Positions 45,325 through 45,813 of a DNA stretch of 64,000 nt are shown here, in pieces. Positions within the stretch are counted from its first letter, which is position 1, and each line of letters opens with the position of its first letter. The notes beneath the pieces were generated by a model. That model saw only the letters and a program-made list of their open reading frames with translations, searched no databases and had not been told where the DNA came from. A program made the translations under genes and the position numbers. The DNA is from a virus (taxonomy: Duplodnaviria; Caudoviricetes), in IMG/VR virus record IMGVR_UViG_3300044614_001923. One strand, given 5' to 3'.

Positions 45325-45390
45325 CTAGATGAATACGATTGGTCTATTGTCCTTGTCTGTATCATCATAGTGATAATGGTAATCTTGCAT
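45325..45390 (-). CDS. Micro-ORF (21 aa), possibly a truncated remnant
   Basis: MQDYHYHYDDTDKDNRPIVFI; TAATG coupling to the 32-aa ORF. Confidence 0.4.
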   Translation of the reverse strand: MQDYHYHYDDTDKDNRPIVFI

Positions 45391-45488
45391 TACTTATTTC
45401 CAATAAGTTGTGCAAGTGATGCCTGGTGACGACGATTCTCCTTTTGTTTCTGCTCTTTGATGAGTTGAAGTACGTTGAGTTTTTTCAT
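45390..45488 (-). CDS. Basic micro-protein (32 aa)
   Basis: MKKLNVLQLIKEQKQKENRRHQASLAQLIGNK; TGATG coupling; GGAGG 8 nt upstream. Confidence 0.65.
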   Translation of the reverse strand: MKKLNVLQLIKEQKQKENRRHQASLAQLIGNK

Positions 45489-45625
45489 CACTTATGACCC
45501 TCCTTAGTGTACTTAACTCCGCGATAAACTTCGTTGTACTGTTGAGGTTGCTGCATCATTTGCTGTTGATACTCAAGACGCTTTTGCGTATCGTATTCAA
45601 CACCGCGATATACTACTTTAGACAT
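45488..45625 (-). CDS. DUF4278-type small protein (45 aa)
   Basis: MSKVVYRGVEYD...EVYRGVKY with two YRGV motifs; GGAGG SD; directly downstream of the glutamine riboswitch-like RNA. Confidence 0.8.
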   Translation of the reverse strand: MSKVVYRGVEYDTQKRLEYQQQMMQQPQQYNEVYRGVKYTKEGHK

Positions 45626-45639
45626 TAGGATTTCCTCCA

Positions 45640-45751
45640 GAATGAGATGATTAGTCCCGTTCCTTCGGGCGGTTTGCGTTTGCTATTTGCAAATAGCAAA
45701 TGAACGTTCCGTTCCGCCGTCCTACTTGCGTCCAGTTTCCTGGATGAACGT
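45640..45751 (-). promoter_or_regulatory. Tandem glutamine riboswitch-like leader (glnA / Downstream-peptide family)
   Basis: Two units CGTTC-A-hairpin-CGCA...GAACG (P1 = CGTTC/GAACG); the second ends GAAG-GAACG-GG...TCTCAT; DUF4278 downstream. Confidence 0.75.
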
Positions 45752-45757
45752 AAGGTC

Positions 45758-45786
45758 ATTATAGACCCATTACAATATCTATTCAA
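45758..45786 (-). promoter_or_regulatory. Sigma70 promoter for the riboswitch operon
   Basis: TTGAAT, 17 nt, TATAAT; predicted +1 falls at the first aptamer base. Confidence 0.8.
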
Positions 45787-45813
45787 GTAAATTTGTAAAT
45801 TACGATACAAATA

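What the first reader, a model, noticed from the sequence alone, without database searches (positions are those of the whole stretch)
45640..45786. Interlocked tandem glutamine-riboswitch-like aptamers in a phage early operon
Minus strand from the predicted +1: CGTTC-A-[TCCAG GAAA CTGGA]-CGCAAGTA-GGAC-GGCGG-AACG-GAACG, which overlaps CGTTC-A-[22-nt perfect palindrome 45679-45700]-CGCA-AA-CCGCC-C-GAAG-GAACG-GG..TCTCAT..GGAGG..ATG. Each unit has the P1, P2 and junction of glnA/Downstream-peptide glutamine aptamers but no P3 hairpin. Instead the two replacement loops are complementary (GGCGG 45714-45718 with CCGCC 45668-45672). This gives either a kissing-loop dimer or a single outer aptamer with the second nested in P3, and the palindromic GAACGTTC junction allows a P1 register switch. 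Inference: a cooperative glutamine sensor that lets the phage read host nitrogen status and tune a micro-protein operon. The aptamer families and their link to DUF4278 are established; the interlocked geometry is my reading of the sequence.
Basis: partly seen in the sequence, partly recalled or inferred. Interest (0 to 1): 0.85.

Follow-up and report, generated by a model that had tools for sequence, protein, structure and literature searches.

The report
Nested double glutamine riboswitch in cyanophage
The leader of a small-protein operon in this freshwater cyanophage holds two glutamine-sensor cores that are not in series: the second sits, in permuted order, inside a stem of the first, a layout I could not find in the riboswitch papers I could read.

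Summary
Rfam's glutamine-I model hits 45654-45752(-) at 40.7 bits (cut-off 35), but only as one outer aptamer with 52 extra bases in its third stem.

I compared more than 130 distinct relatives from phage contigs. Three results fix the fold.
- The two "replacement loops" pair with each other and covary.
- The long-range "linchpin" pair of each binding core covaries only in the swapped partner choice. Core 1 closes with the last GGAACGG and core 2 with the first. 25 sequences fit only this choice and none fit only the serial one.
- So the fold is nested. An outer canonical glutamine-I aptamer shares its P3 stem with an inner, circularly permuted core that has no E-loop.

A kissing dimer of two serial aptamers is rejected. 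Glutamine binding, cooperativity and the direction of control were not tested; folding models weakly favour switching translation on.

The gene controlled is a DUF4278 (IF17-like) micro-protein.

This scan already reported the same nested layout, with genes inside its hairpins, in other phage genomes. This window holds the compact, gene-free form. I found no paper that describes it.

The parts
45781..45786 (-). -35 box TTGAAT of a sigma-70-type promoter
   Evidence: TTGAAT, 17-nt spacer, TATAAT, 10 of 12 matches.
45758..45763 (-). -10 box TATAAT, flanked by the inverted repeat GGUC/GACC (45767-45764 and 45757-45754). The predicted start is about 45751, right at the aptamer's 5' end.
   Evidence: Metatranscriptome contigs of relatives cover 45440-45767 and none cover 45776-45811. 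This is weak support, because these are contigs from relatives.
45746..45750 (-). Outer P1, 5' strand CGUUC (core 1). It pairs with 45662-45658.
   Evidence: Rfam alignment. The partner choice is fixed by covariation of the outer linchpin.
45731..45744 (-). P2 hairpin of core 1 (UCCAG GAAA CUGGA)
   Evidence: the three junction-proximal pairs are 100% paired in 114 sequences, and all three show changes on both sides.
45723..45730 (-). Linking strand CGC plus AAGUA (E-loop half) of core 1. C45728 is the linchpin base that pairs with G45657.
   Evidence: this pair is C-G in 96 and G-C in 18 sequences, with none unpaired. Roles of these bases are taken from PMC6698751.
45717..45722 (-). Segment a (GGACGG), the 5' strand of the shared P3 helix
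   Evidence: a and a' have equal length in 139 of 152 sequences and keep pairing through compensatory changes.
45709..45716 (-). First CGGAACGG. GAACG 45714-45710 forms the inner P1 with 45706-45702. G45709 is the inner linchpin base and pairs with C45676.
   Evidence: every sequence with C or U at this position has G at the partner position of core 2.
45701..45708 (-). Two-base linker AA, which with G45709 caps the inner P1, followed by CGUUCA of core 2
   Evidence: linkers are 2-4 nt in nearly all relatives. That suits a hairpin loop and is too short to span P3 in a serial fold.
45679..45700 (-). P2' hairpin of core 2: a 22-nt palindrome with a 9-bp stem
   Evidence: One search shows compensatory changes among relatives (C-G to U-A, G-C to U-A, C-G to G-C); junction-proximal pairs are 99.7% paired.
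45673..45678 (-). Linking strand CGC plus AAA of core 2, with no E-loop half. C45676 is the inner linchpin partner.
45667..45672 (-). Segment a' (CCGCCC), the 3' strand of the shared P3 helix
   Evidence: The Rfam alignment independently pairs G45722/G45721 with C45667/C45668.
45657..45666 (-). GAA (E-loop half), G35, the outer P1 3' strand GAACG (45662-45658) and the outer linchpin G45657
45644..45658 (-). P4 hairpin, GGGA (45658-45655) paired with UCUC (45647-45644). It uses G40 and G41 of the outer core, so it cannot coexist with the closed outer pocket. Probably part of the expression platform.
   Evidence: 48 of 68 relatives have a 4/4 complementary P4, against 38.1 +/- 2.5 after shuffling. 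Pair types include GGGA:UCUC, GGGU:ACCC, GGAU:AUCC and GGCA:UGCC. The RNAalifold signal is weak.
45634..45638 (-). Shine-Dalgarno sequence GGAGG
   Evidence: it lies 8 nt upstream of the ATG.
45488..45625 (-). Controlled gene: a 45-aa protein with two YRG repeats, DUF4278 family (IF17-like)
   Evidence: E = 0.0015, below Pfam's cut-off on its own; 15 of 17 orthologues behind the same RNA match DUF4278, best E = 1.8e-13; 119 of 136 downstream genes are of this kind.
45390..45491 (-). Second micro-ORF (33 aa), overlapping the first in GUGAUGA
   Evidence: Its N-terminus resembles the MNTLNLIK... proteins that follow the same RNA in 12 relatives.

Best explanation
The 5' leader, roughly 45751 to 45626 on the minus strand, is a nested double glutamine riboswitch.

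Outer unit. It is a canonical glutamine-I aptamer. P1 is CGUUC 45750-46 paired with GAACG 45662-58. It has the P2 hairpin, the E-loop halves AAGUA and GAA, and the linchpin pair C45728:G45657.

Shared stem. Its P3 is not a hairpin. It is a 6-bp helix, 45722-17 with 45672-67, carrying one A.C mismatch.

Inner unit. That helix closes around a second binding core written in circularly permuted order: GGAACGG first, then a 3-nt cap, then CGUUCA, the P2' hairpin and CGC. The inner core has its own P1 (45714-10 with 45706-02) and its own linchpin (G45709:C45676). It has no E-loop. It uses the same helix as its P3, entered from the other end.

Inferred function, not shown:
- Each core binds one glutamine, as in the solved glutamine-I and -II structures.
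- Because the outer pocket can close only once the inner domain has formed its P3, the two sites are coupled.
- Closing the outer pocket takes G45658 and G45657 out of a competing downstream hairpin (P4, or the longer GGAACGGGA/UCUCAUUCU helix). This frees the pyrimidine-rich stretch next to the SD.
- The result is more translation of the DUF4278 (IF17-like) micro-protein and its coupled partner when glutamine is high.

My confidence is about 0.85 for the nested architecture, about 0.55 that both pockets bind glutamine, and about 0.55 that control is ON. The figure given below is for the statement as a whole.
For: Family membership of the outer unit:
- RF01739 scores 40.7 bits against a cut-off of 35, with a 52-nt insert in P3.

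Shared P3 helix:
- a and a' have matched lengths of 5, 6, 8 or 9 nt.
- Compensatory changes include AGUCG/CGACU to AGUCA/UGACU..ACU/AG.. to ..ACA/UG.. to ..ACG/CG.., and AGCCGACU/AGCCGACU to AGCCAACU/AGCUGACU.
- On 114 aligned sequences the nested structure is 94.6% paired. Its covariation score is 0.214 against 0.073 after shuffling (0 of 500 shuffles reach it) and at most 0.068 when partners are slid.

Partner choice:
- Linchpin states written as (19#1, 41#1, 19#2, 41#2) among 132 distinct sequences: CGCG 102, GGCC 16, CCGG 8, GCGC 3, CUGG 1.
- 25 sequences fit only the swapped choice and none fit only the serial choice.
- The switched states lie on several different a/a' types, so they arose more than once.
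- In samples unbiased for the pair in question there are no mismatched combinations apart from one G.A. The unbiased samples are the scan-2 loci for the outer pair and the scan-3 loci for the inner pair.
- The serial reading leaves 23 of 114 sequences unpaired at each linchpin.

Conservation of the inner core when only outer words were required:
- 80 of 95 inner sequences are strict matches, 13 are near-strict and 2 are spurious.

Generality:
- Apparent singlets and 1.5-mers are the same fold with an ORF inside P2' (97 of 103) or inside P2 (35 of 36).

Energy:
- Nested -26.9 against serial -19.5 kcal/mol.

Feasibility:
- The pocket consists of the CGUUC:GAACG helix, CGC lying in its groove, and the 19:41 pair.
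- The glutamine-II aptamer also works as two separate RNA pieces, and it crystallised with exchanged strands (PMC6698751).

Output:
- P4 covaries modestly.
- Positions -22 to +3 are more open with the outer P1 enforced in 86 of 92 G41-class and 18 of 18 C41-class relatives.
- Published glutamine riboswitches switch on DUF4278 genes (PMC6212724).
Against: - No binding or reporter data exist for this RNA or any relative.
- The P1 strands themselves never vary, so their partner choice rests on one tertiary pair per core, plus sterics and energy.
- The loci were fetched with patterns that required core words, so conservation figures are partly circular. I used the scan that left each pair free for each claim.
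- The inner linchpin base is the first base of a 3-nt cap in this window. That geometry must differ from the crystal structures and could hinder the pocket.
- The nested fold is not the minimum-energy fold: -30.7 with constraints against -33.9 unconstrained.
- In this window SD accessibility hardly changes between the modelled states (0.74 against 0.69; 0.49 against 0.47). The direction of control is therefore a weak inference.
- I could not read Ames and Breaker 2011, so the claim that this layout is undescribed is limited to the papers I could search.
Confidence: 0.7

Rival explanations
1. One sensor only. The outer glutamine-I aptamer binds glutamine. The inner domain is a structured P3 extension or decoy. 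It helps folding, or offers alternative pairings for the GAACG and CGUUC strands, but binds no ligand.
For: - Rfam sees only the outer unit.
- The inner pocket is capped by 3 nt and has no E-loop.
- One metatranscriptome contig of a relative lacks 45673-45717, which is the whole inner domain, so an outer-only form may exist.
Against: - All pocket bases of the inner core (CGUUCA, CGC, GGAACGG) are kept even when the search did not require them.
- Its linchpin pair covaries: G:C, C:G and U:G, with one mismatch. Selection for that tertiary pair is hard to explain without a working pocket.
Confidence: 0.17
2. Two serial aptamers, each closing its own P1, joined by a kissing or pseudoknot helix between their loops.
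For: - The word order 5'-3'-5'-3' looks serial.
- True serial glutamine-I tandems exist in other phage contigs.
- Published surveys count phage and marine doublets as tandems (PMC9481103).
Against: - Serial linchpins are broken in 23 of 114 sequences each, and 25 distinct sequences fit only the swapped choice.
- The 2-4-nt linker cannot span a 5-9-bp helix.
- The serial fold is 7.4 kcal/mol worse.
- True serial tandems keep a P3 hairpin in each unit, and this RNA has none.
Confidence: 0.03
3. Register switch. The reader's helix GGCGG/CCGCC (45718-14 with 45672-68) is a real alternative conformer. It takes G35 and G36 of the inner core out of play when glutamine is absent, and the covarying register forms on binding. 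This is compatible with the best explanation.
For:
- C-G35-G36 can pair with a' positions 3-5 in most relatives: 87.7% of cells are paired.
- In the main register that spot often holds an A.C mismatch.
Against: - Only one pair shows a change on both sides, and the rest are invariant or G-C to G-U.
- The similarity may simply follow from the repeated CG(A/G) words.
- The 5-bp class (AGUCG/CGACU) offers at most 2 bp in this register.
Confidence: 0.25
4. Not a metabolite sensor. The element would be a conserved promoter-proximal cassette for recombination or protein binding, and its likeness to glutamine aptamers is vestigial.
For: - The element sits in a gene-shuffling region behind a promoter embedded in an inverted repeat.
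- It carries different genes in its loops in different phages.
Against: - The Rfam score is above the curated cut-off.
- Covariation is RNA-type, including G-U pairs and tertiary pairs.
- The element is consistently tied to DUF4278 genes, as are host glutamine riboswitches.
Confidence: 0.03

Closest known systems
Glutamine-I riboswitch (glnA RNA, Rfam RF01739; Synechocystis gifB leader, PMC6212724; structure by Ren et al. 2015 as described in PMC6698751)
   Same: The outer unit has all the parts: P1 CGUUC/GAACG, the unpaired A, P2, CGC in the groove, the AAGUA/GAA E-loop, a P3 helix and the 19:41 linchpin. It scores above the Rfam cut-off and precedes a DUF4278 gene.
   Different: P3 is not a hairpin. 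It is closed by a second complete binding core (52 nt here, or more than 200 nt when a gene is carried). The linchpin is C:G here, whereas the Rfam glutamine-I consensus has G:C; relatives show both forms.
Glutamine-II riboswitch (Downstream-peptide motif, RF01704; PMC6698751)
   Same: Same pocket bases (CGUUCA, CGC, GGAACGG, linchpin C19:G41) and no E-loop, like the inner core. It can be assembled from two strands.
   Different: Glutamine-II is an H-type pseudoknot in which GGAACGG lies inside the loop of its own P2. Here the inner core is a three-way junction in permuted order. The RF01704 hit (27.3 bits, cut-off 33) corresponds to the serial reading, which covariation rejects.
Serial tandem glutamine riboswitches (Weinberg 2010, PMC2864571; 157 doublets in Sherlock 2022, PMC9481103; examples L270, L271 and L276)
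   Same: Two glutamine cores on one leader, 5-8 nt apart, in marine phage or metagenome DNA.
   Different: In serial tandems each unit has its own P3 hairpin and its own P1, and they are described as independent, pseudo-cooperative units. Here neither unit has its own P3, the strands are swapped, and there is a single expression platform.
Tandem glycine riboswitch and guanidine-II (two sites, one expression platform)
   Same: Two ligand sites of the same kind are physically coupled and read out once.
   Different: In those, the two domains lie side by side and touch through tertiary contacts or kissing loops. Here one domain is inserted in a stem of the other, in circularly permuted order, and they share a helix.

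Membership tests
Glutamine-I riboswitch (RF01739): outer unit | Covariance-model score at or above the curated cut-off | tested here: met
   40.7 bits against 35, E = 2e-5 for the 64-kb window. The alignment needs a 52-nt insert in P3.
Glutamine-I riboswitch (RF01739): outer unit | Three-way junction P1/P2/P3 with E-loop strands (AAGUA and GAA) | tested here: met
   P2 and P3 covary. The E-loop words are invariant in 114 sequences. P1 never varies, so it is uninformative on its own.
Glutamine-I riboswitch (RF01739): outer unit | Long-range linchpin pair between the linking strand and the base 3' of P1 | tested here: met
   C-G in 96 and G-C in 18 sequences, none unpaired, but only with the distal GGAACGN as partner.
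Glutamine-I riboswitch (RF01739): outer unit | Selective binding of L-glutamine | not testable with these tools
   Needs in-line probing or ITC.
Glutamine-I riboswitch (RF01739): outer unit | Sits in the 5' leader of a DUF4278 or nitrogen-related gene | tested here: met
   DUF4278 in 15 of 17 orthologues. 119 of 136 downstream genes are YRG proteins. The association is as described in PMC6212724.
Glutamine aptamer core (I or II): inner unit | Pocket bases CGUUC-A, CGC and GGAACG(G/C) present and conserved | tested here: met
   Present at 45716-45673. Kept in 91 of 93 genuine relatives found with a pattern that did not require them.
Glutamine aptamer core (I or II): inner unit | Linchpin pair | tested here: met
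   G:C in 105 sequences, with C:G and U:G variants and one mismatch.
Glutamine aptamer core (I or II): inner unit | Family strand order (5' P1 strand, then P2, then P3 or P2, then 3' P1 strand) and recognition by the family model | tested here: not met
   The order is permuted, with the 3' strand first. No Rfam hit covers the inner unit as such. It therefore works like these aptamers but is not a member by the models.
Serial tandem glutamine riboswitch | Each unit closes its own P1 and linchpin and has its own P3 | tested here: not met
   Neither unit has a P3 hairpin. Serial linchpins are broken in 23 of 114 sequences.

The most novel reading that the evidence does not exclude
Both pockets bind glutamine, and they are coupled through the shared P3 helix. 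This would make it a natural riboswitch built from one aptamer nested, in circularly permuted order, inside another. It would give a steep or thresholded response to host glutamine. The same scaffold is common in cyanomyoviruses and can carry whole genes in its hairpins, so phage use of riboswitches would be much wider than surveys report.
Probability: 0.5. Interest if true: 0.85.

Novelty: new variant of a known kind. Interest (0 to 1): 0.75.

Why it matters
- It changes what phage "tandem" glutamine riboswitches are. Here the two cores are one interlaced fold with swapped strands and a single read-out, not two independent switches.
- I did not find a circularly permuted aptamer nested inside another and sharing a helix described for any riboswitch class in the papers I could search.
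- It offers a compact natural design for a two-site sensor, with obvious uses in RNA engineering.
- It explains why standard models miss these elements. Relatives in S-PM2, P-TIM68 and Bellamy score at or below the Rfam cut-off.
- It also bears on a 2017 survey that found only two glutamine aptamers in cyanophages and concluded that phages rarely use riboswitches (PMC5473149).
- Biologically, the switch controls IF17-like micro-proteins. IF17 inactivates glutamine synthetase in cyanobacteria (PMC6212724). The phage may therefore tie manipulation of host nitrogen assimilation to the host's glutamine level.
- S-PM2 with Synechococcus WH7803 is a cultured system in which this can be tested.

Tried and rejected
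- Single-sequence folding. The minimum-energy fold is neither the nested nor the serial fold, so it does not decide between them.
- SD-only accessibility model. It gives a clear ON logic only for the C41 sister class (0.36 against 0.02). There is no change for the window's class, so I dropped a simple anti-SD mechanism for this window.
- RNAalifold on the 3' tail. It gave only a weak 3-bp consensus, and P4 needed a custom test.
- Scans for mismatched inner linchpin combinations. They returned almost only chance hits in unrelated phages and no genuine mismatched doublet. All scans stop at 120 rows, so counts are samples.
- My first reading of "singlets" and "1.5-mers" as separate architectures was wrong. 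They are the same nested fold with a gene inside one hairpin.
- Host copies. The genome-contig scan found only phage-like contigs in marine MAGs and SAGs plus three chance hits. It therefore gives no evidence of chromosomal copies, and only the CGCAAGUA type was searched.
- No whole genome is held for this window.
- RNA-run contigs cannot show a transcript start or expression level.
- Ames and Breaker 2011 could not be opened, and searches for "nested" or "circularly permuted" glutamine riboswitches found nothing.
- No covariance-model scan of an artificially re-permuted inner core was possible with the tools.

Full report
**What is there**

On the minus strand a sigma-70-type promoter, TTGAAT-17-TATAAT at 45786-45758, is followed directly by these words:
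- CGUUC-A, hairpin, CGCAAGUA, GGACGG, CGGAACGG;
- a two-base linker AA;
- CGUUCA, a 22-nt palindromic hairpin, CGCAAA, CCGCCC, GAAGGAACGG.

About 30 nt further on lie the SD GGAGG and the ATG at 45625.

Rfam's glutamine-I model (RF01739) hits 45654-45752 at 40.7 bits (cut-off 35). It does so only by taking the 5' half of the first unit and the 3' half of the second, leaving 52 nt as an insert in P3. The glutamine-II model gives a sub-threshold hit (27.3 against 33) on the first unit read serially.

**Context**

- Upstream is speD (AdoMet decarboxylase, E = 1e-34).
- Downstream are a 45-aa ORF with two YRG repeats (DUF4278, weak on its own), a coupled 33-aa ORF, further micro-ORFs, thyX and phoH.
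- The closest cultured relative over this stretch is Synechococcus phage S-PM2, at 78.7% identity.
- The DNA recurs in lake-water metagenomes.
- No whole genome is held for the window.

**Relatives**

Pattern scans of viral contigs and four phage isolates gave 132-152 distinct sequences with the same word order.

**1. The inter-loop helix is real, in a shifted register**

Call the segment between CGCAAGUA and CGGAACGG "a", and the segment between CGCAAA and GAAGGAACGG "a'". They have the same length in 139 of 152 sequences, and they stay complementary across classes of 5, 6, 8 and 9 nt:
- AGUCG/CGACU, with the variant AGUCA/UGACU;
- GGACGG/CCGCCC, which is this window's pair;
- GGACGACG/CGCCGCCC;
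- AGCCGACU/AGCCGACU, with the variants ..ACA/UG....ACG/CG.. and AGCCAACU/AGCUGACU.

On a MAFFT alignment of 114 complete sequences, the innermost pair is U-A in 25, G-C in 23 and A-U in 21. The outermost pair is A-U in 78, G-C in 28 and G-U in 5. Two internal positions are usually A.C or C.A, and Watson-Crick in some classes.

Only one of its pairs shows a change on both sides. It may be an alternative conformer.

**2. Which strand closes which pocket**

The solved structures show what the glutamine pocket consists of (PMC6698751):
- the CGUUC:GAACG helix;
- CGC of the linking strand lying in its groove;
- a long-range "linchpin" pair between the third base of that CGC (position 19) and the base just 3' of GAACG (position 41).

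This pair is C:G in glutamine-II and G:C in the Rfam glutamine-I consensus.

The P1 strands never vary here, but the linchpins do. Written as (19 of core 1, 41 after the first GAACG, 19 of core 2, 41 after the second GAACG), the distinct sequences are:

| State | Count |
|---|---|
| CGCG | 102 |
| GGCC | 16 |
| CCGG | 8 |
| GCGC | 3 |
| CUGG | 1 |

Two further sequences were read as CGAG; one is a parsing artefact and the other a genuine G.A mismatch.

GGCC, CCGG and CUGG break both serial pairs and keep both swapped pairs. No sequence does the reverse.

On the alignment, the swapped pairs are formed in 114 of 114 and 113 of 114 sequences. The serial pairs fail in 23 of 114 each, no better than shuffled.

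The switched states occur on several a/a' types, so they are not one inherited event. The sample that left the outer pair free (scan 2) gave only matched states, 41 C..G and 21 G..C. The sample that left the inner pair free (scan 3) likewise gave only matched states. Scans aimed at mismatched inner states found no genuine example.

Two further points agree with this.
- The linker between the first GGAACGG and the second CGUUCA is 2-4 nt. That is ideal for a hairpin cap and too short to span a 5-9-bp helix.
- The nested fold is 7.4 kcal/mol better than the serial one.

**The fold**

The structure is nested.
- The outer unit is a canonical glutamine-I three-way junction: P1 45750-46 with 45662-58, P2, the E-loop and linchpin C45728:G45657.
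- Its P3 is the a/a' helix.
- At the far end of that helix sits a second three-way junction made of the first GGAACGG, a 3-nt cap, CGUUCA, P2' and CGC-AAA.
- This inner unit is a glutamine core in circularly permuted order. P1 is capped and P3 is open. It has no E-loop and has its own linchpin, G45709:C45676.

The whole nested structure is 94.6% paired, with a covariation score of 0.214 against 0.073 after shuffling (0 of 500) and at most 0.068 when partners are slid.

When only outer words were required in the search, the inner core words were still intact in 91 of 93 genuine hits.

**3. Generality**

I first read some sequences as singlets or as units lacking the first half. They are the same fold with an ORF inside a hairpin.
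- 97 of 103 "singlets" have CGCAAA-a'-GAAGGAACGG 134-188 nt downstream, with a' matching a. P2' closes around a 49-64-codon ORF.
- 35 of 36 "half" forms have CGUUCA-UCCnAUG about 200 nt upstream. P2 closes around a 59-70-codon ORF.

Earlier notes of this scan, made on other genomes, gave me this lead, and I checked it here. This window holds the compact form with no gene inside.

True serial tandems, each unit with its own P3 hairpin, also exist in other phage contigs. They are clearly different from this fold.

**4. Output**

The gene behind the RNA is a YRG/DUF4278 protein in 119 of 136 cases, and a longer YRG protein in 12. 15 of 17 sampled orthologues match DUF4278. This is the family of the glutamine-synthetase inactivating factor IF17, whose gene is switched on by a glutamine riboswitch in Synechocystis (PMC6212724).

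Just 3' of the outer core, a small hairpin P4 uses G40 and G41 of that core (45658-55 with 45647-44). It covaries modestly: 48 of 68 are fully complementary, against 38 +/- 2.5 after shuffling. P4 cannot coexist with the closed pocket.

In this RNA the unconstrained fold pairs GGAACGGGA with UCUCAUUCU, right up to the SD.

I enforced the outer P1 as a proxy for the bound state. This makes positions -22 to +3 more open in 86 of 92 relatives of the window's class and in 18 of 18 of a sister class. The sister class has an explicit anti-SD. The effect in the window itself is small (0.49 against 0.47), and SD-only accessibility does not change.

I therefore rate "ON at high glutamine" as the more likely direction, but weakly.

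**What is shown and what is inferred**

Shown by comparison:
- the a/a' helix;
- the two hairpins;
- the swapped linchpins, and hence the nested topology;
- the association with DUF4278 genes.

Inferred:
- both pockets bind glutamine;
- coupling through the shared helix;
- translational control and its direction;
- any role in reading host nitrogen status.

**Novelty**

Tandem glutamine riboswitches are known (PMC2864571; 157 doublets in PMC9481103, where they are listed as pseudo-cooperative systems with separate platforms).

I found no description of a nested or permuted arrangement. Rfam has no model for it.

A 2017 survey found only two glutamine aptamers in cyanophages (PMC5473149). Relatives in S-PM2, P-TIM68 and Bellamy score at or below the Rfam cut-off.

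The original 2011 paper could not be read.

The scan itself had already noted the nested layout in other phage genomes. This report adds the compact form, the linchpin table, the register of the shared helix and P4.

Noticed in passing
window 45794-45809 (-): A perfect TGTA-N8-TACA palindrome, like an NtcA box, lies 8 nt upstream of the -35 box. GTA-N8-TAC is present upstream of 99 of 113 related leaders, against 5 of 113 control regions. It is mostly centred 51-53 nt before CGUUCA. That spacing is not the classical -41.5. If functional, the operon would read both 2-oxoglutarate (through NtcA) and glutamine.
   Followed up: partly
window 45754-45767 (-): The -10 box TATAAT sits in the loop of an inverted repeat (GGUC...GACC). 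Relatives show the same arrangement with other stems, for example GUGUUAUAAUUAACAC and GGUAUAAUUACC. It resembles the promoter-early stem-loops of T4-type phages (from memory). The element lies in a gene-shuffling region.
   Followed up: no
L003, L005, L008 and others; L006, L009, L019 and others: In many relatives P2' or P2 of the nested riboswitch closes around a complete 49-70-codon ORF. The start codon follows the 5' stem strand and the stop codon abuts the 3' strand. For the inner ORF the SD (GGAG) is formed by G40, G41 and the linker. Translation of that ORF and folding of the sensor should therefore exclude each other.
   Followed up: partly
window 45679-45700 (-): The 22-nt hairpin (UUYGCUAUUYGCAAAUAGCRAA) is nearly identical in many marine and freshwater phages. 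It also appears as P2 of core 1 in some of them (L023, L105). Its stem changes are compensatory. Why this long version is kept instead of the usual 4-5-bp P2 is unexplained.
   Followed up: no
window 45673-45717: One metatranscriptome contig (run X18, depth 81) joins 45718 directly to 45672, skipping the whole inner domain. It is either a relative that has only the outer aptamer or a reverse-transcriptase jump across the base of the a/a' helix.
   Followed up: no
L270, L271, L276, L294, L303, L312 and others: Other phage contigs carry classical serial glutamine-I tandems. Each unit has its own P3 hairpin and a G19:C41 linchpin, and a clear anti-SD (CAUCU...AGGAGAUG) follows the second unit. 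They are useful as a contrast set.
   Followed up: partly
alignment A1, columns 47/114 and 53/111: Two positions of the shared helix are A.C or C.A mismatches in most sequences (89 of 114 and 51 of 70) and Watson-Crick in the others. In the 8-bp class a and a' are the same word (AGCCGACU), so the helix looks alike from both junctions.
   Followed up: no
L618 (NZ_RMVE01000006.1) and L622, L613: Contigs of 188-194 kb filed under Nonlabens, Prochlorococcus and Synechococcus assemblies carry the phage-type element. Their size suggests they are cyanomyovirus genomes sitting inside cellular assemblies.
   Followed up: no
window 45390-45491 (-): The 33-aa ORF is coupled to the DUF4278 gene through the overlap GUGAUGA. 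Its N-terminus (LNVLQLIKEQ) resembles the MNTLNLIKKQIEK... proteins that directly follow the same riboswitch in 12 relatives. Those proteins end in YRG repeats.
   Followed up: no
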